Source: Verrucomicrobiota bacterium (GTDB taxonomy: Bacteria; Verrucomicrobiota; Verrucomicrobiia; Limisphaerales; JAKPVM01). From it: 64,000 nucleotides of DNA. The notes under the pieces were generated by a model. The model had not been told where the DNA came from and did no database searches. It saw nothing but the letters and a program-made list of their open reading frames with translations. Location: positions 2,467 through 66,466 of the forward strand of contig JAKPVM010000076.1 of NCBI GenBank assembly GCA_029572555.1, written 5' to 3'. The stretch's first letter is position 1. Each line of letters opens with the position of its first letter. Shown here in pieces: positions 8,751 through 40,017 of this stretch. Position numbers and translations under genes: made by a program.

Positions 8751-9392
8751 ATGAAAACAAAATTGCTAATATTAACAGCCGCCGTAGCAGTAGCAGGAGC
8801 TATTGCCGTAAAGGCGCAGACAGTTTATTCTGTCAACGTAGTCGGTTACGTGAATGTGACCCTCGCTCCGGGGTTCAACCTAATCGCTAACCCACTAAAT
8901 ACAACGAATAATACTATTGGTTCATTGTTGCCGGGAATACCGGGCTTAACTGTATATAAATATATTTCTGGTTCTTATGCAAACTGGTCGTTTGATGAAT
9001 ATGATCTAGTTTGGTATCCTAATGATAAGGCAACATTAAATCCTGGCGAAGGTGCATTTGTTTTTAATCCCACTGCAACTAATATTGTTGTAACATTTGT
9101 TGGCGAAGTACTCCAAGGTTTGTTGACAAATGATATACCAGTGGGGTATTCAATCAGAAGTTCAATGGTTCCTCAAACAGGAACAATAAATGATATATTG
9201 CAACTTCAGGGTGAACCTGGCGACACCATATATAAATATAAAATAGAAACAAAAAATTATGAAAGTTATACATTTGATGAATTTGAGTTAGTTTGGTATC
9301 CAGATTCGCCTGTTATTAATGTTGGTGAAGCATTCTTTTTAAATCGTTTTACAAAACCAACTCAATGGATTAGAAACTTTACGGTTCAATAA
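8751..9392 (+). CDS. Secreted protein of unknown function with an internal tandem duplication
   Basis: Signal peptide MKTKLLILTAAVAVAGAIAVKAQ. Two ~80-aa units share VYKY...Y..(W/Y)(S/T)FDE(Y/F)(D/E)LVWYP......(G)E(G)AF(V/F)(F/L)N. Confidence 0.6.
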   Translation: MKTKLLILTAAVAVAGAIAVKAQTVYSVNVVGYVNVTLAPGFNLIANPLNTTNNTIGSLLPGIPGLTVYKYISGSYANWSFDEYDLVWYPNDKATLNPGEGAFVFNPTATNIVVTFVGEVLQGLLTNDIPVGYSIRSSMVPQTGTINDILQLQGEPGDTIYKYKIETKNYESYTFDEFELVWYPDSPVINVGEAFFLNRFTKPTQWIRNFTVQ

Positions 9393-9449
9393 ATAAAAGA
9401 ATTTTAATATGTTAGAAGTTGACAAAAATAATAAAAATAAGGCAAAATT

Positions 9450-10112
9450 ATGAAAAAACTAATGATTATTGCTGTTATAGGCGTTTGCGCTGGTTTAGCT
9501 TATGGGCAGGCGCAATTTGAAATGAAATCTAGTATACCCGGCACTCTGCGTGTTCTGGTTTATGGTCCAGAACCAAGTAATCCTACGCAACCGTTGTATG
9601 GTAATCCACCAGAGGGAATTCCGTCGGGAACCACCACTTACTCAGGTCCACTGTTGCAAGGCACAGGATATACTGCTGAAATTTGGTGGGGAACTACTTC
9701 CGATGAAAATAGTTTACAGGCTGTTCCAGGTTCTCAGTGGCATTTTAGAACTGGAGCAGGTGCAGGAATTCTTGATGGGAAATCACCTACTGGTGGACAA
9801 ACTTTGTTGACGGTCCCTGGTTGTAATTTTTCTGGTAATGTATATATGCAGTTAAGGGTCTGGGACAATAATGGAGGTCAGATAACTTCGTGGGCTGATG
9901 CTTTAACTTATTGGAATTCTATCACTGACCCAAACTACGCAATTGGGAAATCTCAGATATTCGAGCAAAAGGTTGTGATTGCACCAGAACCCGCATCTCC
10001 TGGATTACTTAATCTTCGGAGTTTCAGTCTTTACACCAACGTACCTGAGCCGGCAACGATTGCGTTGTTAGGGCTTGGTGGTTTGGGCTTACTGTTCCGT
10101 CGTCGTAAATAA
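9450..10112 (+). CDS. PEP-CTERM sorting-domain protein
   Basis: Signal peptide. The C-terminus VPEPATIALLGLGGLGLLFRRRK (nt 10041-10109) is a textbook PEP motif plus TM helix plus Arg cluster. Confidence 0.85.
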   Translation: MKKLMIIAVIGVCAGLAYGQAQFEMKSSIPGTLRVLVYGPEPSNPTQPLYGNPPEGIPSGTTTYSGPLLQGTGYTAEIWWGTTSDENSLQAVPGSQWHFRTGAGAGILDGKSPTGGQTLLTVPGCNFSGNVYMQLRVWDNNGGQITSWADALTYWNSITDPNYAIGKSQIFEQKVVIAPEPASPGLLNLRSFSLYTNVPEPATIALLGLGGLGLLFRRRK

Positions 10113-10143
10113 TGTAGTTTTAACAATAGTTTAATAACAACAA

Positions 10144-10173
10144 AGAGCCGTCCATAGAGACGGCTCTTTTTTT
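10144..10173 (+). terminator. Rho-independent terminator after the PEP-CTERM gene
   Basis: AGAGCCGTC-CATAGA-GACGGCTCT (9-bp GC-rich stem) followed by TTTTTTT. Confidence 0.8.
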
Positions 10174-10380: not shown

Positions 10381-10809
10381 ATGAAATCTGGTAAGACAGC
10401 TCGTTTTTCGGTCTCAATATCTGCTGAGTTGCTTGAACAGTTTGACAGAATGATATTAAATGTTGCAAATCGCAGTCAGGCAATTGGCGATCTTATTCAG
10501 GATGCACTAATCGAGCACAAAAAGGAAATCGGTAATGAAGAGATGGCAGGAACGATAACCATTGTTTATGACCACCACAAACCGCATATTCAAGAGAACT
10601 TGACTAATATCCAGCACGATTATCAAAAATATATTATCTGTAATTTACACGTTCATTTAGACCACCATAATTGTCTTGAAACGCTTGTAGTAAAGGGGGA
10701 GGCATCAATCCTGAAAAAAATTGCTGATATTTTGATTTCTTCAAAAGGCGTCAAGCACGGTAAGTTGACGATAACGACTACCGGCAAAGAGATATCGAAC
10801 TTCAATTGA
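10381..10809 (+). CDS. nikR: Nickel-responsive regulator NikR (ribbon-helix-helix plus ACT-like metal-binding domain)
   Basis: RFSVSISAELLEQFD...NRSQAIGDLI (RHH domain). TIVYDHHKPH...LHVHLDHHNCLETLVVKG aligns with the E. coli NikR high-affinity Ni site region LHVHINHDDCLE. Confidence 0.8.
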   Translation: MKSGKTARFSVSISAELLEQFDRMILNVANRSQAIGDLIQDALIEHKKEIGNEEMAGTITIVYDHHKPHIQENLTNIQHDYQKYIICNLHVHLDHHNCLETLVVKGEASILKKIADILISSKGVKHGKLTITTTGKEISNFN

Positions 10810-10923: not shown

Positions 10924-12672
10924 ATGGGCGTTGCATCTATAAATAGTATAATTGATGAGGCAGCTGGAATCGATGTGGAAGAGGTTCGTCGGTTAAGCAA
11001 GGCGTGGCAAACGGCTGTTGAGAATGGTTCGCAAGATTCATTTTTAGAATTTGTTTGTCGCGAACGTGGAATTTCATCCGAACAGTTTCTTCGGAATTTG
11101 GCAAAGATTTTAAATTGTCCTTACATTGAGCTTCCCAAAATAACTGTGCCAGCAGAGGCTCGCAACCGAATATCAACAAAAGTCGCTTTTCAATATACAA
11201 TTATGCCAACGGCTATTGAAAACGGTGCGCTTCAGATAGTCACTTCAAATCCATTTGATTCAGGGATGTTGAGCGCTGTTCAATTTGACGCCGCAATGCC
11301 TGTAACACTTGCTCTTGCTACAAAAGAGGAGATAGAAAAAGCCCTTAAAAAGTATTATGGCGTAGGTGCTGAAACATTAGACGAACTTGCTGAGGATGAA
11401 GAGCCATTTGAATTGTTGATACCAGAAGACAAGGAAATTACAGAAACCGACCAGGAGGCAAGCGTAATTAAATTCGTGAACCAGATAATCTGGGAGGCAT
11501 TTAAAGACAGGGCAACGGATATTCATTTTGAACCTTGCGAAGACGAACTACGGATACGCTACCGTATTGACGGTATTTTGCACCAGGCGCCAATGCCACC
11601 GCAATTAAAGCGGTATCAATCGGCAATAATCTCGCGCATAAAAGTTATGTCGGGAATGAATATAGCGGAAAAAAGATTGCCGCAAGATGGTAGAATCAAT
11701 GTAAGAATAAAAGGCGAAGAGCTTGATATTCGTGTTTCCACAGTGCCGACTGTTTATGGGGAGAGTGTCTCGCTCCGGTTGTTGACACGTGGCAAAGTAT
11801 TTCTGGGACTTGAAAGTTTAGGATTTTCTGCCGACCAGGAGTCTGCGATTCGTGAGATAATCGTCAAACCACACGGTATAATGCTTGTGACTGGACCTAC
11901 TGGTTCTGGAAAATCCACATCATTGTATGCATTTTTGAGCACGATTAATTCCGTTCAAAAACGAATCATCACCATTGAGGAACCTGTTGAGTATGAACTG
12001 AAAGGGATTAATCAAATTCCGGTTCGTTCGGACATTGGGCTTACATTTGCCGTAGGGTTAAGGCACATTTTAAGACAGGACCCAAATGTTATAATGGTTG
12101 GAGAAATTCGCGACCTTGAGACGGCAGAAATCGCTATTCGCGCAGCCTTAACTGGGCACCTTGTTTTTAGCACCCTGCACACGAACGACGCCCCGAGCGC
12201 GTTTACTCGTTTGGTTGATATGGGAATTGAGCCGTTCCTTGTGGCGTCATCAGTTGAAGCGGTTATGGCTCAACGACTCGTAAGAACGATTTGTCCACAT
12301 TGTAAAAGCGAACAAATGGTTGAACGTTCTTATCTATTAAAAATAGGATTTCCTGAAGAAGATATTGACAGGGCAAAGTTTTATAAGGGTGTCGGCTGCG
12401 AAAATTGTCGTCAACTTGGCTATCAAGGGCGAACCGGCATTTATGAATTATTAGTGGTTACAGATCCAATCAGGTCTCTTGTGATGAACCGTGCTCCATC
12501 AACAGCGATCTCTCAAAAGGCTATTGAAACTGGAATGAGGACGTTGCGGTACGATGGTTGGCATAAGGTAAAAGCAGGGATTACTACTATTGAAGAGGTA
12601 TTGCGTGTTACTCAAACAGAAGAACACGTTGACCTGATAGAAGATAAACAGATTGAACTTGTGAAACGGTAA
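10924..12672 (+). CDS. GspE/PilB-family type II secretion / type IV pilus assembly ATPase
   Basis: N-terminal T2SSE_N-like domain, Walker A GPTGSGKST, Walker B/His box IMVGEIRD...TGHLVFSTLHTND, tetracysteine CPHC...CENC. Confidence 0.9.
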   Translation: MGVASINSIIDEAAGIDVEEVRRLSKAWQTAVENGSQDSFLEFVCRERGISSEQFLRNLAKILNCPYIELPKITVPAEARNRISTKVAFQYTIMPTAIENGALQIVTSNPFDSGMLSAVQFDAAMPVTLALATKEEIEKALKKYYGVGAETLDELAEDEEPFELLIPEDKEITETDQEASVIKFVNQIIWEAFKDRATDIHFEPCEDELRIRYRIDGILHQAPMPPQLKRYQSAIISRIKVMSGMNIAEKRLPQDGRINVRIKGEELDIRVSTVPTVYGESVSLRLLTRGKVFLGLESLGFSADQESAIREIIVKPHGIMLVTGPTGSGKSTSLYAFLSTINSVQKRIITIEEPVEYELKGINQIPVRSDIGLTFAVGLRHILRQDPNVIMVGEIRDLETAEIAIRAALTGHLVFSTLHTNDAPSAFTRLVDMGIEPFLVASSVEAVMAQRLVRTICPHCKSEQMVERSYLLKIGFPEEDIDRAKFYKGVGCENCRQLGYQGRTGIYELLVVTDPIRSLVMNRAPSTAISQKAIETGMRTLRYDGWHKVKAGITTIEEVLRVTQTEEHVDLIEDKQIELVKR

Positions 12673-12673
12673 A

Positions 12674-14026
12674 ATGGGCGGCTGGCATACCTGTAATATA
12701 ATAAATTTAGACCAAACAACGCAGTTGTGGCGATTTTCGGCTGCCGGGAAAGGAGTGAAGTTTGACGCGGAATTGACTGCTCTGCCATCAGAATCCCTGC
12801 CTACAAGGTTCTTTAAAAAGAGCTGGGGAACCCTATTAAATAAGAAATTTAATGTTGCATATCTTCCTCCTGACCAGGTTTTTTTAAAGGTAATACAACT
12901 GCCGACAACAGATTTTAATGAAACCTTATCAATGGTGGAATTTCAGATGGAAAAACTCTCGCCAATACCAACCACACAAATCGGATGGGCAATCCAGACG
13001 CTTCCATCTTCTAAACCCGATGAACAAACCGTGGTGGTATTTATCGCCCCAAGAAACCTCATAGAAAGTCATCTTGGGAAACTTGAAGAAAATGGATATT
13101 TTGCAGACAGGCTTGAGACACCGCTGTTTGATATGCTGTTTTCATATCCGGTTGAGGGTGATAGCGTCTGGATTTATCCTGTTGATTCTACCAATAAAAC
13201 ATTGTGGATATCGGCATGGTGGTTCAATGGGGCATTAAGGCATCTTGGAATTTTAAACGTAAATGATTTGCAAAATCTAAAAAATCAGTTGCTTCACATC
13301 ATCTGGGGTGGAGAACTTGAAGGCTGGTATAGTGGCAATCCACGTTGGCATATTGTTGTCCCGGAAGATGCTGTGGCGCTATTTGAACCAGTGGTATCGG
13401 AGATTTCTGACGGGAATTATGAAAAACACAAGCCACTTGAAGCCAAACAGATAGCCGAATTGACTGCAAAAAGGCTGCTTGATACCAGAACTCAATCAAC
13501 ACTTGTACCGCCTGAGTATGTTAATAGGTATAAACAGCAATTTATAGATAGGTTATGGATGAGCGGTGTCGCTGCGGTGGTATTGATTTACCTATCCTGT
13601 GTCCTTGTTTATTTTGGATTTTTAGAGGTTTTAAAGTTCAAATATAACCGGCTACAAGCCAAAGCAGCAGCTATAAGTGCTGTCTATACAAACGCCCTTG
13701 CTATAAAGGCGCAAATCCAGGTCCTTGAAGACCAACTTAGTTTAAAAAATGCTGTTCTTGATGCTTACTACTCTGTTGTAATGAACCTGCCAGAAGAGTT
13801 AAGTTTAAACTCGTTAAGTTTTTCTCGTGGAAAAACGGTCACAATTTTTGGAACAGCGCCATCAGACCAAAACGCAAAAGTCACCGAATATAACGGAATT
13901 CTGGGGAGACTTGAACAAAACGGACAAAAATTATTCAGCAAGGTCAGTCCACCAACAATTAGTTTGCGCGGAGAAAAAATAACATGGAGTTTTACCTGCG
14001 AACTTAACAGAACTGAGGTCGAATGA
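12674..14026 (+). CDS. Bitopic assembly protein with GspL-like (or fused PilM-N/PilN-like) topology
   Basis: The ~290-aa cytoplasmic region shows a PilM/GspL-like pattern (VAYLPPDQVFLKVIQLPTTDFNETLSMVEFQMEKLSPIP...VVVFIAPRNLIESHLGKLEENG). One TM helix follows (LWMSGVAAVVLIYLSCVLVYFGFL), then a coiled-coil/periplasmic tail. The start lies 1 nt after the ATPase stop. The call rests on position and topology only. Confidence 0.45.
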   Translation: MGGWHTCNIINLDQTTQLWRFSAAGKGVKFDAELTALPSESLPTRFFKKSWGTLLNKKFNVAYLPPDQVFLKVIQLPTTDFNETLSMVEFQMEKLSPIPTTQIGWAIQTLPSSKPDEQTVVVFIAPRNLIESHLGKLEENGYFADRLETPLFDMLFSYPVEGDSVWIYPVDSTNKTLWISAWWFNGALRHLGILNVNDLQNLKNQLLHIIWGGELEGWYSGNPRWHIVVPEDAVALFEPVVSEISDGNYEKHKPLEAKQIAELTAKRLLDTRTQSTLVPPEYVNRYKQQFIDRLWMSGVAAVVLIYLSCVLVYFGFLEVLKFKYNRLQAKAAAISAVYTNALAIKAQIQVLEDQLSLKNAVLDAYYSVVMNLPEELSLNSLSFSRGKTVTIFGTAPSDQNAKVTEYNGILGRLEQNGQKLFSKVSPPTISLRGEKITWSFTCELNRTEVE

Positions 14027-14628
14027 TTGGCTTATTTAACAAATTAAATCTTAGACCAGTAGAACGTAGATTAGTCGTCGGTGCGGCACTGATATTATTT
14101 GTGGCATTGAACTTTTATTTTGTCGTTCCTCGTTTTGGAGATTGGAAGGATTTGGAAAAGAAAATAAAAGAAACCGAGATAAATATCTCAAAGTATATGA
14201 AGGAAACGAATAACATTCCCGCATATCTTGTGCGACTTGAAGAATTGCAAAGTGCGGGTGAGTTTGTTCCCACAGATGAAACAGCGCTTTCGCTTGCTCA
14301 AACAGTCCTTGGAAAAGCGGCAGAAGCAAACCTTCTTGTTCAACGGCAGACGCCTGCTGGCGGGGGCGATGTTCCAAACAATCCGTTTTTTACCGAACAA
14401 CGGGTCACAATCCATTTTACTTCCGGTGAAAAAGAACTGGTCGATTTTCTAACAAAGCTTGGGTCTGACAGATCGCTTGTCAGGGTTCGCGATATGGATG
14501 TTAAACCGGACCCTCAAAGTTATAAACTCGTCGGTTCGGTAACTGTAATTGGACGGTTTCAAAAAAAACCACTTGCAAAGTCAGATTTGCCTAAAAAAGT
14601 AGCAGAACCTCAAAAACCAGATTCTTAA
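14023..14628 (+). CDS. Bitopic protein with GspM/PilO-like topology
   Basis: N-terminal TM helix (LVVGAALILFVALNFYFVV), coiled coil, ~100-aa periplasmic domain. ATGA start/stop overlap with the upstream gene. No diagnostic motif recognised. Confidence 0.4.
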   Translation: MIGLFNKLNLRPVERRLVVGAALILFVALNFYFVVPRFGDWKDLEKKIKETEINISKYMKETNNIPAYLVRLEELQSAGEFVPTDETALSLAQTVLGKAAEANLLVQRQTPAGGGDVPNNPFFTEQRVTIHFTSGEKELVDFLTKLGSDRSLVRVRDMDVKPDPQSYKLVGSVTVIGRFQKKPLAKSDLPKKVAEPQKPDS

Positions 14629-14629
14629 T

Positions 14630-17086
14630 ATGAAATTCGAAAAAAATGTTAATATTTATAACTGGCTACGTTTTAAACATTTTAACCGAATAGCTAAAAT
14701 GAAATTGCCAATATTGTTTTATGTATTGCTTGCTGCTGGGTGCTGGCAGGCGCTTTCACAAACGACAAATTTACCATCATTGCCGTCAATGCCTGCAAGA
14801 ATCCCAAGAATTAATACGAACGCTCCAACGCCGCGGCAATCAAACACTGTTGGTACTGCGATAAAGCCATCTACAAATGTAACTCTTAATCCGGTTTTGC
14901 CGAGAACGACAACGATGACTAACATTTCTGGGGTACCACAGCCGACTAACGTAATTAAATTGCCTACTGCAACGACAAATCCAGCGGCAAAACCAGTTCG
15001 GATGCCTCTTACCTCTGCTACTCCAACAAATCTTCCACCAACGCGAACTATGCCTGCTGGAGCGCCAACAGCGCCGGGTGTTCCCGGAATTCCTGGACCC
15101 GGAGCGCCGACGGTCTTGCCAACAGTTCCATTAACGTCCACAGCAACTAACCCGGAAACCGCAATGGCTACAAATGTTCCTTCAGGAAAGACAGGACAAG
15201 ACAATCAAACTTTTAAACCCGGTTTGTTACGATTTCAGGCACAGGATCTTAGTGGTGTTCTTGATTTGTATGCTCTACTCGTAAATAAAACAATCTTGCG
15301 CCCAGCCGTCTTGCCGGACGTAAAAATCACAATTAAAAATCAGACCGAACTTAATACTGAAGAGGCAATCAGGGCTATTAATGCTCTGCTTGCGATGAAC
15401 GGTGTAACCTTGATTGATGTAGATGATAAATTCGTGAAAGTTGTCCCTGAAACCGATGTGTTTAAACAAGCCAAACCGTTTTCAAGTAGCGAAGTGGTCA
15501 CAAATATGCCAGACTTAGCGCCTTATGTAACGGTTGTACGACAGGTGACAAATGCTAAACCATCGGAGGTTGTTCAAGCGCTTCAGCCATTTGCAAAAAT
15601 TCAGAACGGGATTATAGGAATAGATAGCAGCCAGATTCTCATTATTCGGGATTATGCGGATAACGTAAAGAGAATGATTGAATTGCTGGATAAAATTGAT
15701 GTTTCAATTCCTCTTGAAATAGAACCTGTTGTAATTCCCATAAAATATGCCAAAGCCGCAGATATGGCGCAGGTGATAAGTTCGCTCACTGCTGGTGGTG
15801 GTGGTGGAACAACTGTTGGTAGTCAGACAGGAGGGAAAAGGGGGACAACCTCCACAAGAGGCCTTGGCTTCGGTTCTCGGACAGGGTTTGGAACATCGGG
15901 TATGACGGGTTATAATCAACCTGGCACAACACCCGGCACGCCATTAGGAACAACTCCTGGCGCTGCTCAAAGTAGCTTTACAGACAGGTTAAAAAGCATC
16001 GTCTCAAAAGCCTCCGCGGTTGGAGAATTACAAATTATTAGCCAGGCAAAAATAATTGCCGATGAACGAACAAACTCGCTTCTCATTTTTGCCGATAAAC
16101 GTGATATGGAAATGATTACAAATATAATAGCAAAACTGGATGTTGTTCTTGCTCAGGTTCTTATTGAATCACTAATTATGGAGGTTCAGTTAAATAATAA
16201 TAGTGATTATGGGTTAAGCTTTCAGCAGAGAAAACCAACCCAAATAGGCAATTTCACCGGTATCGGTTCCATAATAAATGGCACGGTTCTAAATCCGGGT
16301 AGCTTCTCATCAGGGGTTTCAAATGCCGCCGCCTCTTTGAGTGGATTTAGTTATTTTGGCAGATTTAGTCAAGACCTTGATGTAACCGCCACAGCAATAG
16401 CAAACGATAGCAGATACAATGTCATATCAAGACCGCGTATTATGACCACTCACGCAACAGATGCGTATATTTTTGTAGGTGAAACCAGACCTTATATTAC
16501 AGGGAGTTATAATGCACTTTATTACGGTGGTTCAGGTTACTCACAGTATGATATGTTACAAATCGGTATTACTCTTACAGTCACTCCGTATATAACTTCT
16601 GATGGTATAGTGGCAATGGACATTGAACAAGAAATTGCAAACGTTGGTGGCTCGGTTAAAATTGATAATAACGATGTCCCGATAACAGTAAATAGGAATG
16701 CCAAAGCCTATGTGGTTGTAAAAGACCGAGAAACGGTTATTTTAGGTGGCTATATAACCTCTGATATAACCAAAGCAAGTTCCGGAGTACCTATTCTTAA
16801 AGATATTCCACTTTTAGGTATCTTGTTTAAGAACAATAGTTCAAAGAAGAATAGAAGTGAACTAATCGTTTTAATCAAACCTACTGTATTACCAACGCCT
16901 GAGATTGCTGCAAAGGCTACCGAAGAACAAAAAAATCTACTGCCCGGCGTTAAAAGAGCAGAACGAGACGAAGACGCATTGCGAAAACAAGAAGCCGAAA
17001 GATATGAAAGAGAGTATCAGAACAAATTGCTGAAAAAATCAAAGAAAGAAGAATTTAAATCTGAAACACAAGGGAACGATTTCTAA
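14630..17086 (+). CDS. Secretin (GspD/PilQ family) with a long Thr/Pro-rich N-terminal linker and an internal Gly-rich insert
   Basis: Secretin C-domain: SRPRIMTTHATDAYIFVGETRPYITG...SGVPILKDIPLLGILFKNNSSKKNRSELIVLIKPTVL. N-domains are present (IPIKYAKAADMAQVISSL, IIADERTNSLLIFADKRDMEMITNIIAKLD). The signal peptide begins at Met24, giving an alternative start at 14699. Confidence 0.85.
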   Translation: MKFEKNVNIYNWLRFKHFNRIAKMKLPILFYVLLAAGCWQALSQTTNLPSLPSMPARIPRINTNAPTPRQSNTVGTAIKPSTNVTLNPVLPRTTTMTNISGVPQPTNVIKLPTATTNPAAKPVRMPLTSATPTNLPPTRTMPAGAPTAPGVPGIPGPGAPTVLPTVPLTSTATNPETAMATNVPSGKTGQDNQTFKPGLLRFQAQDLSGVLDLYALLVNKTILRPAVLPDVKITIKNQTELNTEEAIRAINALLAMNGVTLIDVDDKFVKVVPETDVFKQAKPFSSSEVVTNMPDLAPYVTVVRQVTNAKPSEVVQALQPFAKIQNGIIGIDSSQILIIRDYADNVKRMIELLDKIDVSIPLEIEPVVIPIKYAKAADMAQVISSLTAGGGGGTTVGSQTGGKRGTTSTRGLGFGSRTGFGTSGMTGYNQPGTTPGTPLGTTPGAAQSSFTDRLKSIVSKASAVGELQIISQAKIIADERTNSLLIFADKRDMEMITNIIAKLDVVLAQVLIESLIMEVQLNNNSDYGLSFQQRKPTQIGNFTGIGSIINGTVLNPGSFSSGVSNAAASLSGFSYFGRFSQDLDVTATAIANDSRYNVISRPRIMTTHATDAYIFVGETRPYITGSYNALYYGGSGYSQYDMLQIGITLTVTPYITSDGIVAMDIEQEIANVGGSVKIDNNDVPITVNRNAKAYVVVKDRETVILGGYITSDITKASSGVPILKDIPLLGILFKNNSSKKNRSELIVLIKPTVLPTPEIAAKATEEQKNLLPGVKRAERDEDALRKQEAERYEREYQNKLLKKSKKEEFKSETQGNDF

Positions 17087-17125: not shown

Positions 17126-20100
17126 ATGATAATAAATCATAAAAATAAGCATTTTGCTTGGCGCGGCGTTCATCTTTTTTTGATTGTTACAGTGTGCAAT
17201 TTAATGGGTTTAATGGGCGCAACTGTAAATGAAAATTCCCCGCAAGCCTTGCAAACAGCTATTAATGCCGGTGGAGAAATCAAATTTGGTTTTAGTGGCA
17301 CAATAAATCTGTCTTATCCGCTTATTGTGGCGAATGATGTAATCATTGATGGGGTGGGACAAACAATAACTTTAGATGGTGGTTATACAGAGACAACAAC
17401 AAACCAAACCGGTACGAGGCTTTTTATCATAAATACAGGGGCAACATTAACATTGAATAATTTAACTTTAACAAAAGGTGTAAGCACGAATGGAGGAGCA
17501 ATTTATGTAAAGAACGGCGCTACACTCGTAGTGAGTAATTGTTTATTTAGCGATAATAATGTGATTGGGGCAAATGGCGCAAATGGAGCGAACGGCAATA
17601 ATACCATTAGTGTTGGAGGTGGTGGCGGAAACGGGGTATCAGGTGGTAACGCATTGGGAGGCGCTATATACAACGAAGGCGATATAACTTTAATAACCTG
17701 TTTATTCAGCGATAATATTACTTCGGGGGGAAATGGTGGAAATGGAGGCAATGGCGGCGACGGAGATTTTACTGGTGGCAATGGTGGCAGCGGAGGTAAT
17801 GGCGGATTGGCAAGGGGCGGCGCTCTATTTAGTGTGAACAAGGCAGCGATTACAAATTGTACATTTTATAATAACCAGGCTACTGGTGGTTCGGGTGGTA
17901 ATGGAGGAACAAATGGTGTTGGCGGAGCTTCTAATGGAAGACCGGGACAGGGTGGTTACGGGGCGGAGGCAAGCGGCGCCGCAATTTACAACTCGGGTTA
18001 TTTGAGTATGTATGGCTGCACTATCTACAATAATTTCTGTCAGGGCGGAAACAGTATGCAGGCTGGGACAGGTGAATCAAGTAATGGAAATAATGGTTAT
18101 TCTGGTGGCAGTTCGCTTGGTGGCGGTATAGTAAATACAAGCACCAACGTTTTAATTAATTGCACTTTTTATGCCAATGAAACTTACGGTGGCAAAGGCG
18201 GTGATGGAGGAAATAGCGTTGATATGATTGCGGGAAATGGGGGTAATGGCGGAAATGCAATAGGAGGCAGTTATTTTAATACAGGTTATAGTTATATCAC
18301 GAATTGCACTTTTTCATCAGGCAATGTCGTTGGTGGAACAAATGGAGTAGCTGGACAGGGCAATTTTGCGGGTAGTCCCGGAAATATTGGATTGTCAGCA
18401 GGTGGCAACATAGCCAATCAAGGTTCTCTTATAATTCAAAACTCTATTATCACTGCGGCGATAGCCGGTGGAAATTTTTATGGCTCAATCACCGATGCGG
18501 GACATAACATATCATCAGATTCTACCGGGCTTTATCAATCTTCAAGTTTTAAAAAGACTAATCCACAAATCATCGACCTTGCCGATAATGGAGGTCTAAC
18601 TTATACGATGGCGTTGTTAGCAGATAGTCCAGCTATTGATAATGGATATACCATTTTATCATTAACAAATGACCAGTGCGGCACAGTTAGACCTTATGGC
18701 GACGCAGTTGATATCGGGGCTTATGAATATCCAGCTACGCGAATTAGAGGGAGAATAACTGACGGTTCAAATGGCATACCATCGATAAAAGTAGTAGCAG
18801 GGACAAGATATACTTTCACAGATACACTGGGGTATTATGTGATTTCAAATATGGCAACTGGAAGTTATGTTGTTGCACCGCAGGATGATAGATATTCTTT
18901 TTCGCCTTCTTCTCAAACGGTTAACGCACGTTATACCTCTGTTACAAATATAAATTATGTTGGAAGCAGATTGTATAAACTTGGAGGTAGAATTGTTGAA
19001 AACGGAGTTGGACTTCCAAATGTAGTTATAACTGCTAATAGTTTTTCAGCTAACACAGATATAAATGGCTATTATATTTTTACTAACCTGCCATCCGGGA
19101 ATTATACAGCGACTCCGGGTTTAAATGGTTATAAGTTCTACCCGCAATCGACTAATGTTATACTTCAGAGTGATATTACAAATGTGAACTTTTCAGCTGC
19201 TGCAACTATATTTACTATAACTGGAAAAATCATAGAAGGATCTAATGGAGTTTCTGGGGTAATGATAACAATGGGAAATCTGACAAACTACAGTGATAGT
19301 TCAGGGGTATTTTCTTTTACAAATCTGTCTTCTGGTAATTATCTTATAGTACCATCTAAATCAGGATATAACTTCAACCCGCCGGTTATATCCGTTTCAC
19401 TAAATTCGAACACTAACTTAACCTTTACCGCAAGCGGAATATATAATATTTCTGGAAAAATTACAAAAGGTGGCTTGCCAATACAGGGTATTAAAGTATA
19501 TGCTGGCATTTACTCTGCAACAACAGATAATAGTGGCGATTTTACTATCTTAAATGTTTCTCCTAAAACTTATAATGTTACACCGGTTTTAAGTGGATAT
19601 ACCTTTGACCCGCCTTATTATTCAATAGATGTCTCTCGTGACTATTATGGGCTTGAATATATAGTGTTAAATAGTTTTTCTGTTATTGGGAACGTTTATA
19701 ATATAAATCCGATTACACTGGCGACAAATGGTGTTGTCTCAAATTTAACTATCAACGCAACGAACTTTTATGTATCTATAACAGGACAAACTAATCAAAC
19801 TATAATTACTACAATAACTGATACGAATGGAACTTATATTCTTACTAATATTATTGAAGGCTCAATATTTATAAAACCAGAAACCAATAGGTATTTATTT
19901 TATCCACCAATTACCAATGTATTTTTAACATCAAATACAAACCAGATTAATTTTCTTGCGTCGGAATTATTTAAAGTTAGCGGCAGAATTAAATTTGAAG
20001 ACGGTGGCTTAAGCGGTGTAAAAGTTGCAGCTGGCGGTTTAACCACAACAACATTAAACGATGGATATTTCGAATTTACAAACCTTGAAGCAACTAACAT

Positions 20101-21586
20101 TGTAATTAAACCTGAACTTGACGGATACAGATTTGTTCCATCACAAATAGCGTTGACTCCGAACGACAGTAGCACCAATATCAATTTCACTGCCTATGGA
20201 AGCCTCTCTATAAGCGGTGTTGTTACAAAAGATGGGACCGGATTAAGTGGAGTTTATGTTGCAATTAACCAGTATCTTGTTCAGACACTTAACGATGGCT
20301 CTTATCTCCTTGATGGATTAGTACCGGGAAATTACCAGATTAATCCATACCTCTCTGATTATATCTTTAATCCTCAGTCTATTTCTTTAACACTGTTAAA
20401 TACAAATGCAATAGTCAACTTTACTGCGATACCTATTTATAATGTTAGTGGAAGGGTTACCGATGGCATTAAAGGAATATTAGGGGCAACTGTATCTTCT
20501 GGAACTACTTCGACTCTAACAGATGTTAATGGATATTTTACTTTGATTGGTATACCAAAAGGAACAAATAAAATAACGGTTGCTTTGACGGGGTACCTCT
20601 TTTCTCCCCTTGATGTATATGTTGATTCAGATATGTATGGTATTAATATCGTTGCAACAAGACTACATAATATTAGCGGTAGAATACTTGAAGGAGCCCG
20701 TGGAGTATCTGGTGTACTTGTTTTGGCTGGTGGAGTTTCGACTTTCTCAACTAGTGCTGGATATTATACTTTAACAAATGTTCCAGAAGGAAATGTAATT
20801 ATTATTCCTGAGAGGACAGGTTATAGATTTGTGCCATCGAATATTGTTCTTAATTTGACGGCAGATGCTACAAATATGAACTTTCTTGCTTATGGGATAC
20901 TTTCAATTTCTGGGCATATCACTGATGGAACAAATGGGATAAATGGAATAAGGATAAATGCTTATGGGATTGAAACTGTTACTGATGCAACTGGCTATTA
21001 TATAGTAAGCAATTTACCACCTCGTTCAATTACTGTTATGCCGATTGATGATGGCTATTTGTTTATTCCGGGAAGCACAAATATTACTCTTACAGGCGAA
21101 AATGCGGTCAATGTAAATTTTCTGGCTTTAAAGTTCTCCACAATTTCGGGGCAGGTGCTTAAGTCGGGTAATCCTGAACCAGATGTAAAGATACAATCGT
21201 CTGATGGGCAGGAGGTTTTGACCGACACAAACGGGCAGTTTGTTATTACCGGAATATTGCCCGGCTCTTATATTATAACAGCGTCAAAGATTGGGCATCA
21301 ATTCAAACCGCAAGGTTATATAGTTTCGTTGCCGTCGGACATTACAAACTTAAACTTCACTGCTTATCCGTTATTAATGTCTGCAATGATAACAAATAAT
21401 ATTTTGGTTATTTCTGTTAATGCAAAGCCATCTTGCGATTATATGATAGAAGCGACAGATTCTCTTACAACGGCTATATGGAATGACATAGCGCCTTTTC
21501 AAACAGATACGAATGGCACAATTCAGTTAATTATTCCGACGATTGACAAAACAAAACCGCGGTTTTATAGGTTTAGGAGTCTTTAA
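17126..21586 (+). CDS. 1486-aa secreted repeat protein: Pmp-like right-handed beta-helix, a choice-of-anchor-Q-like segment, ~11 CarboxypepD_reg-like domains, and a C-terminal beta-sandwich ending RFYRFRSL
   Basis: Signal peptide. Repeated GGAIY/GGAL plus C(T/L)F(S/Y)xN motifs (chlamydial Pmp-type GGA(I/L/V)/FxxN repeats). Gly/Asn tract GGNGGNGGNGGDGDFTGGNGGSGGNGG. DAGHNISSD...DNGGLTYTMALLADSPAIDNG...DQCGTVRP...DIGAYEY (nt 18494-18730). Tandem ~78-aa units of the form SGRI.DG..G..GV.V.....T.TD..GYY...NL..G.Y.V.P...GY.F.P. Confidence 0.8.
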   Translation: MIINHKNKHFAWRGVHLFLIVTVCNLMGLMGATVNENSPQALQTAINAGGEIKFGFSGTINLSYPLIVANDVIIDGVGQTITLDGGYTETTTNQTGTRLFIINTGATLTLNNLTLTKGVSTNGGAIYVKNGATLVVSNCLFSDNNVIGANGANGANGNNTISVGGGGGNGVSGGNALGGAIYNEGDITLITCLFSDNITSGGNGGNGGNGGDGDFTGGNGGSGGNGGLARGGALFSVNKAAITNCTFYNNQATGGSGGNGGTNGVGGASNGRPGQGGYGAEASGAAIYNSGYLSMYGCTIYNNFCQGGNSMQAGTGESSNGNNGYSGGSSLGGGIVNTSTNVLINCTFYANETYGGKGGDGGNSVDMIAGNGGNGGNAIGGSYFNTGYSYITNCTFSSGNVVGGTNGVAGQGNFAGSPGNIGLSAGGNIANQGSLIIQNSIITAAIAGGNFYGSITDAGHNISSDSTGLYQSSSFKKTNPQIIDLADNGGLTYTMALLADSPAIDNGYTILSLTNDQCGTVRPYGDAVDIGAYEYPATRIRGRITDGSNGIPSIKVVAGTRYTFTDTLGYYVISNMATGSYVVAPQDDRYSFSPSSQTVNARYTSVTNINYVGSRLYKLGGRIVENGVGLPNVVITANSFSANTDINGYYIFTNLPSGNYTATPGLNGYKFYPQSTNVILQSDITNVNFSAAATIFTITGKIIEGSNGVSGVMITMGNLTNYSDSSGVFSFTNLSSGNYLIVPSKSGYNFNPPVISVSLNSNTNLTFTASGIYNISGKITKGGLPIQGIKVYAGIYSATTDNSGDFTILNVSPKTYNVTPVLSGYTFDPPYYSIDVSRDYYGLEYIVLNSFSVIGNVYNINPITLATNGVVSNLTINATNFYVSITGQTNQTIITTITDTNGTYILTNIIEGSIFIKPETNRYLFYPPITNVFLTSNTNQINFLASELFKVSGRIKFEDGGLSGVKVAAGGLTTTTLNDGYFEFTNLEATNIVIKPELDGYRFVPSQIALTPNDSSTNINFTAYGSLSISGVVTKDGTGLSGVYVAINQYLVQTLNDGSYLLDGLVPGNYQINPYLSDYIFNPQSISLTLLNTNAIVNFTAIPIYNVSGRVTDGIKGILGATVSSGTTSTLTDVNGYFTLIGIPKGTNKITVALTGYLFSPLDVYVDSDMYGINIVATRLHNISGRILEGARGVSGVLVLAGGVSTFSTSAGYYTLTNVPEGNVIIIPERTGYRFVPSNIVLNLTADATNMNFLAYGILSISGHITDGTNGINGIRINAYGIETVTDATGYYIVSNLPPRSITVMPIDDGYLFIPGSTNITLTGENAVNVNFLALKFSTISGQVLKSGNPEPDVKIQSSDGQEVLTDTNGQFVITGILPGSYIITASKIGHQFKPQGYIVSLPSDITNLNFTAYPLLMSAMITNNILVISVNAKPSCDYMIEATDSLTTAIWNDIAPFQTDTNGTIQLIIPTIDKTKPRFYRFRSL
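18734..21366 (+). repeat. About 11 tandem ~78-aa (~235-nt) CarboxypepD_reg-like domain repeats inside the 1486-aa gene
   Basis: Units counted by eye, from ATRIRGRITDGSNG... to ...SDITNLNFTAY. They are divergent at the nucleotide level and conserved as a protein pattern. Confidence 0.7.
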
Positions 21587-27360: not shown

Positions 27361-29034
27361 ATGCTAAATAGGGTAAAAACGTCGAACAACCGTTGGATTT
27401 ATCGTTATATAATAATGGCGGTGCTTTATTGTATCATTATCTTTAATTTCAATTCGTTTGCACAAACAATAAAAGATGGTTATTTACCCGAGCCAGTTGT
27501 TGATGAATCTGGAAGAGGAAAAATCCCGAAGGGGTGGGAACAAGAGGCAGGCGAGACCGGCTATACAGGAGGGACAGGGACAGTTGAACCGGGGGCAATT
27601 AAGGATTTTGAGGCTGGGTATAACCAAGTTTTTAGAACACTCCGATCCGGCATTAGAGACCCGATAACTGTTGGCACTGGCGAGGGTGAAGCCAGTCTTG
27701 GTTTAGGTGTGCGTCCGAGTTATACACTTCCGCTTGTTGAATGGAGGACAAGGCCAGAAGACGCAGATATTAAAGTCGGTAACTTCTACTTAGATTTTAA
27801 GTCATTGTATGGAACCGTTTTATGGAGCGATAACATTTGGCGGGACGATACAAGAAAAGAATCTGATGCAATTGGCATAATTGGGATTGGGGTTGTTGCA
27901 AAGTTACAGATTGAAGAAAACTTCCAACTTTCATTAGGAGGGCGTTTTGCGTATTTACCAGCCGAAGGGAAAATTGCTTATGGCGACCCATTAGAATTAT
28001 TATCTGGTACCGTAACTCCACTGGCAATGGCACAACTTGTTTATGATATACCAGTAGGGGGAACCGATATTCAATTCTTTAATAGGTTTATAATTCGTTC
28101 TGGTGGATACAGAAGAGGTGAAGCCTTTGACCTGTTTGATACAGATAGCTACGGAGTGGATAGAATGGGGCGTTATCAGTTAAGAACACCGGCCGACCCG
28201 GATACGGTAATGAGCCGATACGATCATTTTGATAGTATATGGTATCAAAATAGAGTTGGCGCCACAGTAAGTCGATTATTTCCAACCGAAACCCGACTTA
28301 CGGTTGGTGGATATCACCAAAATAACTGGTATGGTGGCAATATTAGTGATTTAAATGACTCCGACCAAGATGTGATTTTCGTTGCCTTAAAAAATGAACA
28401 CGAAAATATGCGTTTCAAACCATTTGCTGATTATAGAGTAATTTCCAATTCAGGGTGGGAAGATTGGGCTCAAGTGGCTTATATTGGAATTGAGGGACCT
28501 ATCACCAAGCAGATTGATTTTTTAGGAGAATTTGGTTACTACGATTCAGGTGCTTCACCACTTACTACCCAATTATGGACAGTTGGTCTTCGGCACAGAA
28601 TTGGGCCATTCACTTGGCATGAATTAGAATGGACAAGAAGACCGACCGATCCAGAACGATTTATAAGAACCGGATGGTTTTACAGGTTACATCAAATTTT
28701 AACCAAAGATATTGATGCGGAATTTGTTTTTGACTACTCGGATTACGATAAAGAGGACGAAGACATCAGGGATAGTAATCAAATCGAAACAGGCTTAATT
28801 TTTACATACAATATGTCTCCCAAATTGCTCACAAGAATTGGTGGTTATTACAGGCGATTTGAATGTGATAATCCAATTTATAAAGATATAGAAATTTATA
28901 CTGCCAGAGTTGAGTTAAAAATTAATCATACAAAAACCTTTTATACCAGATTACTTTATCAATTTGAGCGGAGAAATTCCAGTTTAAATTACGACGAAAA
29001 TATGATAATGATAACATTGACAAAAGATTTATAA
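27361..29034 (+). CDS. Putative outer-membrane beta-barrel protein at the head of the polysaccharide export locus
   Basis: Signal peptide ending AQT. The long C-terminal region has alternating hydrophobic/aromatic beta-strand-like periodicity (e.g. IEIYTARVELKINHTKTFYTRLLYQFERR). It lies directly upstream of the Wza-like gene. No named family recognised. Confidence 0.4.
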   Translation: MLNRVKTSNNRWIYRYIIMAVLYCIIIFNFNSFAQTIKDGYLPEPVVDESGRGKIPKGWEQEAGETGYTGGTGTVEPGAIKDFEAGYNQVFRTLRSGIRDPITVGTGEGEASLGLGVRPSYTLPLVEWRTRPEDADIKVGNFYLDFKSLYGTVLWSDNIWRDDTRKESDAIGIIGIGVVAKLQIEENFQLSLGGRFAYLPAEGKIAYGDPLELLSGTVTPLAMAQLVYDIPVGGTDIQFFNRFIIRSGGYRRGEAFDLFDTDSYGVDRMGRYQLRTPADPDTVMSRYDHFDSIWYQNRVGATVSRLFPTETRLTVGGYHQNNWYGGNISDLNDSDQDVIFVALKNEHENMRFKPFADYRVISNSGWEDWAQVAYIGIEGPITKQIDFLGEFGYYDSGASPLTTQLWTVGLRHRIGPFTWHELEWTRRPTDPERFIRTGWFYRLHQILTKDIDAEFVFDYSDYDKEDEDIRDSNQIETGLIFTYNMSPKLLTRIGGYYRRFECDNPIYKDIEIYTARVELKINHTKTFYTRLLYQFERRNSSLNYDENMIMITLTKDL

Positions 29035-29200
29035 AAATGACCAACGTATATAAAAAATGTCAAAAAAATATTTTAAAAATTTTTCTTTACAAATTAGGAT
29101 AAATTGTTTTAATTTTATAAAAAGAACAACGGTAGGCGATTTTTTTAAGATTAATTTTTGTATTTAATCAGAAGCCCAAAAATTAAAAACGCGCTAAAAA

Positions 29201-30427: not shown

Positions 30428-30446
30428 TTAATAGCGTGTTTTTTTA

Positions 30447-30473
30447 AAAGCCAGGGGAAACCCTGGCTTTTTT
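30447..30473 (+). terminator. Strong rho-independent terminator between the wza-like and wzc-like genes
   Basis: AAAA-GCCAGGG-GAAA-CCCTGGC-TTTTTT: 7-bp GC-rich stem, GNRA loop, flanking A- and T-tracts. Confidence 0.8.
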
Positions 30474-30583
30474 ATAATATCTGACATTAATTGAATGATA
30501 GAAACCGATTAATCTTTAGAAATCTTTTCTTCTATTAATACTTGTTAATTTCATATAATCTGTTAATTTAAATCAAATAATTT

Positions 30584-32758: not shown

Positions 32759-32776
32759 TTTAACTTTGTAAAGATA

Positions 32777-33760: not shown

Positions 33761-33762
33761 AA

Positions 33763-34911: not shown

Positions 34912-35010
34912 ACTTTTTATGAAGGTTGTTTACGAGATAAAAACAAATTATAAAATATGGATTATTAATATGGATTGAAATTTTAAGTACAAAATGTAGA
35001 TTTTCTCAAG

Positions 35011-36534: not shown

Positions 36535-36547
36535 TGGTCTAACACCT

Positions 36548-39964: not shown

Positions 39965-40017
39965 ACCATCACAATTTTTGCTTGTCTTTTTAAGCTCGGG
40001 TGTCAATTTAAGTTTAT

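What the first reader, a model, noticed from the sequence alone, without database searches (positions are those of the whole stretch)
10924..17086. Stripped-down ATPase/secretin operon with no platform protein, pilins or prepilin peptidase in cis
Four translationally coupled genes have stop/start spacings of 1 nt, a 4-nt ATGA overlap, and 1 nt. They encode a GspE/PilB ATPase with Walker A and a tetracysteine motif, a 450-aa bitopic protein with GspL or PilM-PilN-fusion topology, a 201-aa GspM/PilO-like bitopic protein, and a secretin. Known T2SS and T4P machines also need a polytopic GspF/PilC platform, major and minor (pseudo)pilins and a prepilin peptidase. I see none of these anywhere in the 64 kb. 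Either the missing parts are encoded elsewhere, or this is a reduced or variant secretin-dependent machine.
Basis: partly seen in the sequence, partly recalled or inferred. Interest (0 to 1): 0.6.

Follow-up and report, generated by a model that had tools for sequence, protein, structure and literature searches.

The report
Split type II secretion gene block
This is a real four-gene operon from a Verrucomicrobial type II protein-secretion machine (motor ATPase, two inner-membrane scaffold proteins, outer-membrane pore). The parts it lacks are most likely encoded elsewhere in the genome, so it is an ordinary split system rather than a stripped-down new machine.

Summary
Four tightly packed + strand genes (10924-17086) encode:
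- a GspE-type ATPase with Walker A and a CxxC...CxxC motif;
- a 450-aa bitopic protein whose model has GspL architecture (PilM/GspL-like cytoplasmic domain, one TM helix, PilN-like periplasmic domain);
- a 201-aa bitopic GspM/PilO-fold protein;
- a GspD-type secretin.

No GspF, pilin or prepilin peptidase lies anywhere in the 64 kb.

The block is not peculiar to this genome. The 450-aa protein has relatives in 413 species genomes, nearly all Verrucomicrobiota (Limisphaerales/Pedosphaera). In every locus read (about 85), the order E-L-M-D is kept and housekeeping genes flank it. None of these loci (1.25 Mb) has F or a peptidase in cis.

Solitary prepilin-type genes do occur in the flanks of three relatives. 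An Opitutales isolate has proteins of matching size (449 aa and 173 aa, one TM each) next to a secretin inside a full cluster with GspE, GspF and GspJ/K. Legionella is a known split T2SS.

Best reading (about 0.8): one sub-operon of a dispersed T2SS. I could not check whether GspF exists in this genome.

One addition: a secreted beta-helix / choice-of-anchor-Q protein directly follows the secretin in 21 of 46 relatives and may be cargo.

Interest is low to moderate.

The parts
10924..12672 (+). GspE-type secretion ATPase (582 aa): N-terminal MshEN/T2SSE_N domain, Walker A, Asp, Walker B and His boxes, tetracysteine motif
   Evidence: Pfam T2SSE 463.9 bits and MshEN 53 bits. NCBIfam GspE TIGR02533 621.4 bits (cutoff 630.25); PilB TIGR02538 606.5 bits (cutoff 675.65). 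Motif positions. 72-79% identical across relatives; 41% identical to E. coli GspE.
12674..14026 (+). GspL-like bitopic protein (450 aa): actin-like cytoplasmic domain (about 1-270), TM at 293-322 followed by a long helix, ferredoxin-like periplasmic domain (377-444)
   Evidence: AF2 model, pLDDT 84. Foldseek: PilM 2.5e-11; GspL/EpsL cytoplasmic domains 1.8e-9, TM-score (target) 0.51-0.60. Weak per-member Pfam hits: PilN 11/34, T2SSL 10/34, PilM_2 3/34. PDB profile hit to Thermus PilM, E 1.9e-4. No Pfam or NCBIfam hit for the protein itself.
14023..14628 (+). GspM/PilO-like bitopic protein (201 aa): TM at 15-39, coiled coil, alpha-beta-beta x2 ferredoxin-like periplasmic domain
   Evidence: NCBIfam GspM_XpsM E 3.6e-9, 36.5 bits, below the cutoff of 60. 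Pfam T2SSM in 13/18 family members, PilO in 7/18, all below threshold. AF2 pLDDT 71. Foldseek: PilO 9e-7; EpsM TM-score (target) 0.74; PulM 0.62; Amuc_1100 1e-4.
14630..17086 (+). GspD-type secretin (818 aa from ATG 14630; alternative start ATG 14699): signal peptide, Pro/Thr-rich linker (about 45-200), N0, two Secretin_N domains split by a Gly/Thr-rich insert, secretin domain, Lys/Glu-rich tail
   Evidence: Pfam Secretin 143.3 bits, Secretin_N 71 bits, N0 22.2 bits. NCBIfam GspD 321.8 bits (cutoff 351.35), against PilQ 162.7 and MshL 141.1. Composition and start context.
17126..21586 (+). Secreted 1486-aa protein, 39 nt downstream of the secretin: signal peptide, Gly-rich beta-helix-like head with a choice-of-anchor Q domain, then CarboxypepD_reg repeats. 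Candidate cis-encoded cargo.
   Evidence: NCBIfam choice_anch_Q 73.7 bits (cutoff 25). Pfam CarboxypepD_reg, 8 stretches. No terminator-like site between 17086 and 17126. A homologue of the N-terminal ~540 aa is the next gene on the same strand in 21 of 46 relatives. The role as cargo is inferred.
10142..10169 (.). Strong bidirectional terminator-like hairpin. Likely upstream limit of the transcription unit; nikR (10381-10809) lies between it and the ATPase gene.
   Evidence: Stem of 11-12 pairs with T runs on both strands. nikR is not conserved upstream in relatives.

Best explanation
The four genes are one sub-operon of a dispersed type II secretion system of a Verrucomicrobium (Limisphaerales/Pedosphaera lineage). 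They encode the motor ATPase (GspE), the two bitopic inner-membrane assembly-platform proteins (divergent GspL and GspM) and the outer-membrane secretin (GspD).

Inferred mechanism, by analogy with studied T2SS: the GspE hexamer docks through its N-terminal domain on the actin-like cytoplasmic domain of the GspL-like protein. GspL and GspM pair through their TM and ferredoxin-like periplasmic domains. A polytopic GspF platform, a prepilin peptidase and pseudopilins, all encoded elsewhere, use ATP hydrolysis to build a short pseudopilus. The pseudopilus pushes folded periplasmic proteins out through the secretin.

The large secreted beta-helix protein encoded just downstream is a likely substrate.

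Shown here: gene content, folds, and conservation of the block. Inferred: the partners encoded elsewhere, the protein contacts, and the cargo.
For: ATPase and secretin score highest against the GspE and GspD equivalog models, just under their cutoffs.

The 450-aa protein has the fused PilM-like, TM and PilN-like architecture that defines GspL. Its cytoplasmic domain fits GspL/EpsL (TM-score 0.51-0.60) better than PilM (0.34-0.48). No conserved nucleotide-binding loop appears in the family alignment: the first invariant residue is P77.

The 201-aa protein has the GspM/PilO fold and a near full-length GspM HMM match.

The E-L-M-D order is conserved in all loci from 413 species genomes that could be read, with housekeeping flanks. 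It is therefore a stable module under selection, not a decaying remnant.

Three relatives carry solitary genes in their flanks that pass the prepilin-type N-terminal domain cutoff; one also has H-X9-DG-CTERM. Class III signal peptides, and hence a peptidase, exist in genomes that carry the block.

The gene table of the Opitutales isolate Verruconatronum alginivorum lists GspJ, a FimT-family protein, GspK, a 449-aa 1-TM hypothetical, a 173-aa 1-TM hypothetical, a secretin, a 216-aa protein, GspE/PulE and an F-family protein as adjacent genes. It also lists a lone prepilin peptidase, and the paper reports 67 PulG-like genes (PMC13274419).

Legionella keeps its T2SS in five clusters, including lspDE apart from lspFGHIJK (PMC6617341).
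Against: No GspF, prepilin peptidase, GspC or GspG-K gene was seen in the window or in 1.25 Mb of related loci. I could not search the rest of this genome or of a close relative.

None of the four proteins reaches the curated NCBIfam equivalog cutoff. GspL and GspM homology rests on fold and sub-threshold HMM hits. hhalign against single E. coli GspL and GspM sequences is not significant.

The ATPase scores nearly as well against PilB as against GspE.

Homology of the Opitutales 449-aa and 173-aa proteins to the window proteins is inferred from size, topology and position only.
Confidence: 0.8

Rival explanations
1. The block is part of a pilus machine (type IVa or MSHA-like) rather than a secretion system. 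It would be the extension ATPase, a fused PilM-PilN (MshI-like) protein, a PilO (MshJ-like) protein and the secretin, working with pilins and a PilC platform encoded elsewhere.
For: The ATPase scores 606.5 bits against PilB, close to its 621.4 against GspE, and has a PilB-like N-terminal extension. Top fold hits are PilM and PilO. Some sources name M-like homologues 'Tfp pilus assembly protein PilO'. The flanking prepilin-type genes could equally be pilins.
Against: The secretin scores 321.8 bits against GspD, against 162.7 for PilQ and 141.1 for MshL, and no AMIN domain was reported. PilM and PilN are fused as in GspL, with no conserved ATP-binding loop. No PilP or PilT is nearby. The M-like protein matches a GspM model over nearly its full length. 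The Opitutales gene table lists a separate PilM...PulD-type cluster beside its T2SS cluster.
Confidence: 0.08
2. The block is a reduced secretin machine that works without a GspF platform, pseudopilins or a peptidase.
For: No F, pilin or peptidase lies in cis in any of about 85 loci. The block is conserved as a self-contained unit.
Against: From established knowledge of the type IV filament superfamily, no member is known to work without the platform protein and pilins. Zero F genes in 1.25 Mb is what chance predicts if a genome holds only 2-3 F genes. Prepilin-type genes are present in these genomes. The Opitutales cluster places matching components beside F and pseudopilins.
Confidence: 0.04
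3. Refinement, not exclusive of the best explanation: the machine is a dedicated exporter for the beta-helix / choice-of-anchor-Q protein encoded just downstream. The parallels, recalled from general knowledge, are Pul with PulA and Hxc with LapA.
For: The gene lies 39 nt after the secretin with no terminator between them. A homologous N-terminal head is the next gene on the same strand in 21 of 46 relatives, at a median gap of 27 nt. The protein has a signal peptide and a domain typical of surface-anchored proteins.
Against: It is absent downstream in more than half of the relatives. The genomes encode many secreted glycoside hydrolases and sulfatases that also need an exporter. No experimental link exists.
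Confidence: 0.3

Closest known systems
Legionella pneumophila Lsp type II secretion system (lspC | lspDE | lspFGHIJK | lspLM | pilBCD)
   Same: The T2SS core genes are spread over several chromosomal clusters. Secretin and ATPase sit together, away from the platform and pseudopilin genes, and the peptidase is elsewhere (PMC6617341).
   Different: Here L and M are joined to E and D in one operon, in the order E-L-M-D. The L and M proteins are too divergent for the Pfam and NCBIfam models. No GspC has been recognised.
T2SS cluster of Verruconatronum alginivorum AB-alg1 (Opitutales), pgaptmp_000080-000088
   Same: Same phylum. The run 449-aa 1-TM protein, 173-aa 1-TM protein, secretin mirrors the L-M-D order and sizes here. 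NCBI also annotates both bitopic proteins as hypothetical.
   Different: There the ATPase follows the secretin, and GspF and GspJ/H/K lie in the same cluster. Sequence homology to the window proteins was not checked because no sequences were available.
Canonical Gsp/Eps/Pul T2SS of Proteobacteria (E. coli gspC-O, Vibrio eps, Klebsiella pul)
   Same: GspE with a tetracysteine motif. GspL architecture and cytoplasmic fold (4pht, 1yf5, 5tkw). GspM periplasmic fold (1uv7, 5hl8). GspD with N0 and N1-type domains.
   Different: Those systems form a single 12-15 gene operon that includes C, F, G-K and O. Here the ATPase has about 80 extra N-terminal residues, and the secretin has a long Pro/Thr-rich linker and a Gly/Thr insert.
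Type IVa pilus alignment complex PilMNOPQ; Akkermansia Amuc_1098-1102 cluster
   Same: PilM-like, PilN-like and PilO-like folds next to a secretin. The M-like model also resembles Amuc_1100.
   Different: Here PilM and PilN are fused, there is no PilP, and the secretin is GspD-like rather than PilQ-like or Amuc_1098-like (47.8 bits against a cutoff of 750).

Membership tests
Type II secretion system (T2SS) | GspE-family hexameric ATPase with zinc-binding tetracysteine motif | tested here: inconclusive
   TIGR02533 621.4 bits, E 1e-186, over the full model, but below the cutoff of 630.25. PilB scores 606.5. All motifs are present.
Type II secretion system (T2SS) | GspD secretin (N0, N1-N3, secretin domain) | tested here: inconclusive
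   Pfam Secretin and Secretin_N are above cutoff; N0 scores 22.2 against 27. TIGR02517 scores 321.8 against a cutoff of 351.35, twice the PilQ score.
Type II secretion system (T2SS) | GspL: bitopic, actin-like cytoplasmic domain, TM, ferredoxin-like periplasmic domain | tested here: met
   Met at the level of architecture and fold. Sequence models are not met: no T2SSL hit for the window protein, 10/34 relatives sub-threshold, and hhalign against E. coli GspL is not significant.
Type II secretion system (T2SS) | GspM: small bitopic protein with alpha-beta-beta x2 periplasmic domain | tested here: met
   Fold matches PilO, EpsM and PulM. NF040576 E 3.6e-9 over profile positions 1-156 of 180, but 36.5 bits against a cutoff of 60.
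Type II secretion system (T2SS) | GspF polytopic platform protein | tested here: not met
   Absent from the window and from 1.25 Mb of related loci. Presence elsewhere in the genome could not be tested with the remaining caps.
Type II secretion system (T2SS) | Pseudopilins GspG-K with a class III signal peptide | tested here: not met
   None in the window. Three solitary prepilin-type genes in the flanks of relatives pass the TIGR02532 cutoff. A G-K set belonging to this system has not been identified.
Type II secretion system (T2SS) | Prepilin peptidase (GspO/PilD, A24) | tested here: not met
   None in the window or in related loci. It is often a lone gene, as in the Opitutales isolate. The whole genome could not be tested.
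Type II secretion system (T2SS) | GspC (or PilP-like) link between the inner-membrane platform and the secretin | tested here: not met
   No hit with E. coli GspC. A Pro-rich 282-aa protein near the secretin in 6 relatives has no Pfam hit.
Type II secretion system (T2SS) | Secretes folded periplasmic proteins across the outer membrane | not testable with these tools
   Needs a mutant and secretome analysis.
Type IVa pilus machine | Separate PilM and PilN, PilP, PilQ with AMIN domains, PilB plus PilT | tested here: not met
   The PilM-like and PilN-like parts are fused. No PilP or PilT lies in the window. PilQ model 162.7 bits against a cutoff of 284.35; PilB 606.5 against 675.65.
MSHA-type pilus | MshL secretin next to MshI/J and MshE/G | tested here: not met
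   MshL model 141.1 bits against a cutoff of 250.2. No platform (MshG) or pilins in cis.

The most novel reading that the evidence does not exclude
In Limisphaerales the E-L-M-D module, often with its downstream beta-helix protein, has no dedicated GspF partner. Either it drives the secretin without a classical platform, or it is a constant core shared by the many scattered, PUL-linked PulG-like pseudopilins of these bacteria, so that the filament part of the machine is swapped according to substrate.
Probability: 0.05. Interest if true: 0.75.

Novelty: new member of a known kind. Interest (0 to 1): 0.25.

Why it matters
The practical value is in annotation. Two protein families that public records call 'hypothetical' can now be read as the GspL and GspM of Verrucomicrobial T2SS. 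The L-like family has 261 representatives at E <= 1e-30 in a 50%-clustered library and occurs in 413 species genomes. Together with the ATPase and secretin, these families form a recognisable E-L-M-D marker block.

These bacteria are major degraders of sulfated and complex polysaccharides, and their exoenzymes need an export route. The conserved downstream beta-helix protein gives one concrete candidate substrate to test.

The finding does not change the picture of how such machines work, unless the genome-wide search for GspF comes back empty.

Tried and rejected
GspF in the same or a close genome. This was the key open test and every route failed:
- The profile search with A1 returned only the same 31 proteins.
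- Scans of viral contigs with the ATPase, an ATPase alignment and a GspF alignment gave nothing related or nothing at all.
- tblastn of the ATPase against plasmids found only Proteobacteria, Nitrospirota and similar, none from the PVC group (Planctomycetes-Verrucomicrobia-Chlamydiae).
- No Verrucomicrobial GspF seed could be obtained, so the name-based check in the MAGs of P0003 and P0005 (locus-tag prefixes ACP5T0_, ACP5MG_) was not possible.

Sequence-level links. hhalign of the L and M family alignments against single E. coli GspL and GspM sequences was not significant.

Rejected ideas:
- The secretin as a lipoprotein: 'LAAGC' is present here but no Cys is seen in the two relatives' secretin N-termini inspected.
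- nikR as part of the system: it is not conserved upstream.
- The long antisense ORFs within the block (for example 14051-14377 and 14719-15204) as genes: they overlap conserved coding sequence.

Literature. Searches for a description of T2SS organisation in Limisphaerales or Pedosphaera found nothing specific.


Full report
**What is there**

Four + strand ORFs occupy 10924-12672, 12674-14026, 14023-14628 and 14630-17086. The junctions are TAA-A-ATG, an ATGA overlap and TAA-T-ATG.

The first protein is a T2SSE-family ATPase: Pfam T2SSE 463.9 bits and MshEN 53 bits. It has Walker A at 324-331, an Asp box, Walker B, a His box, and CPHC and CENC at 457 and 492.

Among NCBIfam models it scores highest on GspE (621.4 bits, cutoff 630.25). 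PilB follows closely (606.5 bits, cutoff 675.65).

The fourth protein is a secretin: Pfam Secretin 143 bits, Secretin_N 71 bits and a weak N0. It scores 321.8 bits on GspD (cutoff 351.35), against 162.7 on PilQ and 141.1 on MshL.

The secretin has a Pro/Thr-rich stretch of about 155 residues after the signal peptide, and a Gly/Thr-rich insert. Its true start may be ATG 14699, where the signal peptide begins. In that case the last 1-nt spacing is an artefact of ORF extension.

**The two bitopic proteins**

The 450-aa protein has no Pfam or NCBIfam hit.

With an alignment of 34 homologues, AlphaFold gave a confident model with pLDDT 84. The model has three parts:
- an actin-like cytoplasmic domain, about residues 1-270;
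- one TM (293-322) that continues as a long helix;
- a ferredoxin-like C-terminal domain, residues 377-444.

Foldseek against the PDB returns three groups:
- PilM, E 2.5e-11;
- GspL/EpsL/PulL cytoplasmic domains, E about 2e-9, with the better target-normalised TM-scores (0.51-0.60 against 0.34-0.48 for PilM);
- FtsA.

Fusion of a PilM-like domain to a PilN-like domain through one TM is the GspL architecture. The family alignment has no invariant residue before P77, so no conserved nucleotide-binding loop of the PilM type is apparent.

Sequence-level support is marginal:
- Some family members hit PilN (11/34), T2SSL (10/34) or PilM_2 (3/34), all below threshold.
- The family profile hits Thermus PilM in the PDB at E 1.9e-4.
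- hhalign against single E. coli GspL is not significant.

The 201-aa protein matches the NCBIfam GspM_XpsM model over nearly its whole length (E 3.6e-9), but below the cutoff. Relatives hit T2SSM (13/18), T2SSM_b (8/18) and PilO (7/18) weakly.

Its model (pLDDT 71) is a TM, a coiled coil and an alpha-beta-beta x2 domain. It matches PilO (E 9e-7), Amuc_1100, EpsM (TM-score 0.74) and PulM.

**What is missing**

Four checks on the window found no GspF, pilin, A24 peptidase or GspC:
- Pfam scans of all sizeable ORFs;
- a six-frame prepilin-motif regex;
- phmmer with the E. coli K-12 Gsp proteins;
- small F, A24 and GspG HMMs built from three phyla.

The rest of the window is ordinary chromosome. 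It holds glycoside hydrolases, a sulfatase, an exopolysaccharide locus, dnaG and cofactor genes.

**Comparative evidence**

The organism is a Verrucomicrobium. The exact 450-aa protein lies on a JGI metagenome contig, and the nearest named homologues are Verrucomicrobiia MAGs.

A scan of one genome per species found relatives of the 450-aa protein in 413 genomes. The best 80 are almost all Verrucomicrobiota (Limisphaerales, Pedosphaera).

In every locus where the contig allows, the order is ATPase, L-like, M-like, secretin. Median maximal-ORF gaps are 1, -4 and -1 nt.

The most divergent family members I could reach (33-35% identity) have the same four-gene block between unrelated housekeeping genes.

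The ATPase is 72-79% identical across these lineages, while the L-like protein is only 37-43% identical.

A full-library profile search finds 261 representatives at E <= 1e-30 and 3042 at E <= 1e-3.

None of about 85 loci (1.25 Mb) contains GspF or an A24 peptidase. With only a few F genes expected per genome, zero in 1.25 Mb is what chance predicts. It shows 'not linked', not 'absent'.

**Evidence that the partners exist elsewhere**

[quoted passage not shown] One of them also has H-X9-DG-CTERM. Genomes that carry the block therefore make class III signal-peptide proteins, which require a prepilin peptidase.

The gene table of the cultured Opitutales bacterium Verruconatronum alginivorum (PMC13274419) lists these adjacent genes:
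- PulJ/GspJ;
- a FimT-family protein;
- GspK;
- a 449-aa one-TM hypothetical;
- a 173-aa one-TM hypothetical;
- a secretin;
- a 216-aa protein;
- GspE/PulE;
- an F-family protein.

The same table lists a lone prepilin peptidase, and the paper reports 67 PulG-like genes. The sizes, topologies and L-M-D order match the window. I could not align the sequences.

Legionella shows that T2SS genes can be split into five clusters, with lspDE apart from lspFGHIJK (PMC6617341).

A 1486-aa secreted protein starts 39 nt after the secretin, with no terminator-like site between them. It has a Gly-rich head containing a choice-of-anchor Q domain and CarboxypepD_reg repeats.

A homologue of the ~540-aa head is the next gene on the same strand in 21 of 46 relatives, at a median gap of 27 nt. 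The stalk behind the head varies, and is made of Ig domains in L075. It is a reasonable candidate for a cis-encoded substrate.

**Verdict**

This is most likely (about 0.8) one sub-operon of a dispersed type II secretion system with divergent, unannotated GspL and GspM. It is a new member of a known kind.

A pilus-type reading (about 0.08) is disfavoured by the GspD-like secretin and the fused L architecture. A platform-free reduced machine (about 0.04) has no positive support.

The one test that would settle the matter is a whole-genome search for an orphan gspF/gspG-K cluster and peptidase.

Noticed in passing
window 17126-21586 (+): 1486-aa secreted protein with a choice-of-anchor Q domain and CarboxypepD_reg repeats, directly downstream of the secretin. 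Its ~540-aa head is conserved in that position in 21 of 46 relatives, while the C-terminal stalk varies. Possible dedicated cargo.
   Followed up: partly
window 14630-15200: The secretin start is ambiguous (ATG 14630 or 14699). The Pro/Thr-rich N-terminal region was left uncalled by the JGI gene caller on the identical contig, which instead called a 140-aa antisense ORF there (L001 9813-10235).
   Followed up: partly
L004-L083: The ATPase is 72-79% identical across lineages in which its presumed partner, the L-like protein, is only 37-43% identical. This is an unusually large difference in constraint within one operon.
   Followed up: no
L017 14403-15251 (-), L019 14262-15068 (-) and 4 other loci: A roughly 280-aa Pro-rich protein with an N-terminal hydrophobic segment and a 'DRNVF' motif lies just downstream of the secretin on the opposite strand. 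It has no Pfam hit. It could be a GspC/PilP-like connector; this is untested, and no counterpart is seen in the window.
   Followed up: partly
P0016, P0024, P0031 (L086 10001-11779), P0038, P0042, P0050: A subset of L-like proteins carries an extra N-terminal extension of about 115-195 residues. The 592-aa ORF in L086/L087 still overlaps the ATPase stop by 4 nt, so the extension looks real.
   Followed up: no
L086 8253-10004 compared with L087 855-2606: In one metagenome contig the ATPase is split into two ORFs (303 and 263 aa), while the near-identical contig has it intact. This is a frameshift, from either assembly error or a pseudogene.
   Followed up: no
window 8751-10169: A 213-aa secreted protein of unknown family and a 220-aa PEP-CTERM protein, followed by a strong bidirectional terminator (10142-10169). 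Then nikR (10381-10809) sits directly upstream of the ATPase gene. nikR is not conserved there in relatives.
   Followed up: partly
window 27361-42660: Exopolysaccharide locus: a weakly PEP-CTERM-associated outer-membrane protein, a Wza-like Poly_export/SLBB protein, a Wzc-like P-loop protein, GT2 and GT4 transferases, Wzy-like proteins, and two proteins with no family hit (365 aa and 880 aa).
   Followed up: no
window 43189-49575 (-): 2128-aa protein with PKD, Big_7 and CarboxypepD_reg domains and weak metalloprotease (M6/reprolysin-like) hits. Another very large, probably secreted protein.
   Followed up: no
L023, L035, L037, L048, L053, L057, L072, L079, L082 (record titles): Contigs that carry this Verrucomicrobial block are labelled Klebsiella, Bifidobacterium, Haliangiales, Omnitrophota, Acidoferrum and so on in their MAG records. 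The likely cause is mis-binning or wrong taxonomic labels.
   Followed up: no
searches compared: The word-indexed protein search returned only 31-37 homologues of the L-like protein. The genome scan found 413 species and the exhaustive profile search found 261 or more core representatives. Family size is badly underestimated by the first tool.
   Followed up: yes
M-like model: The M-like protein's periplasmic domain resembles Akkermansia Amuc_1100 (E 1e-4). This fits Amuc_1100 being a PilO-type protein of a separate Verrucomicrobial pilus-like cluster.
   Followed up: no
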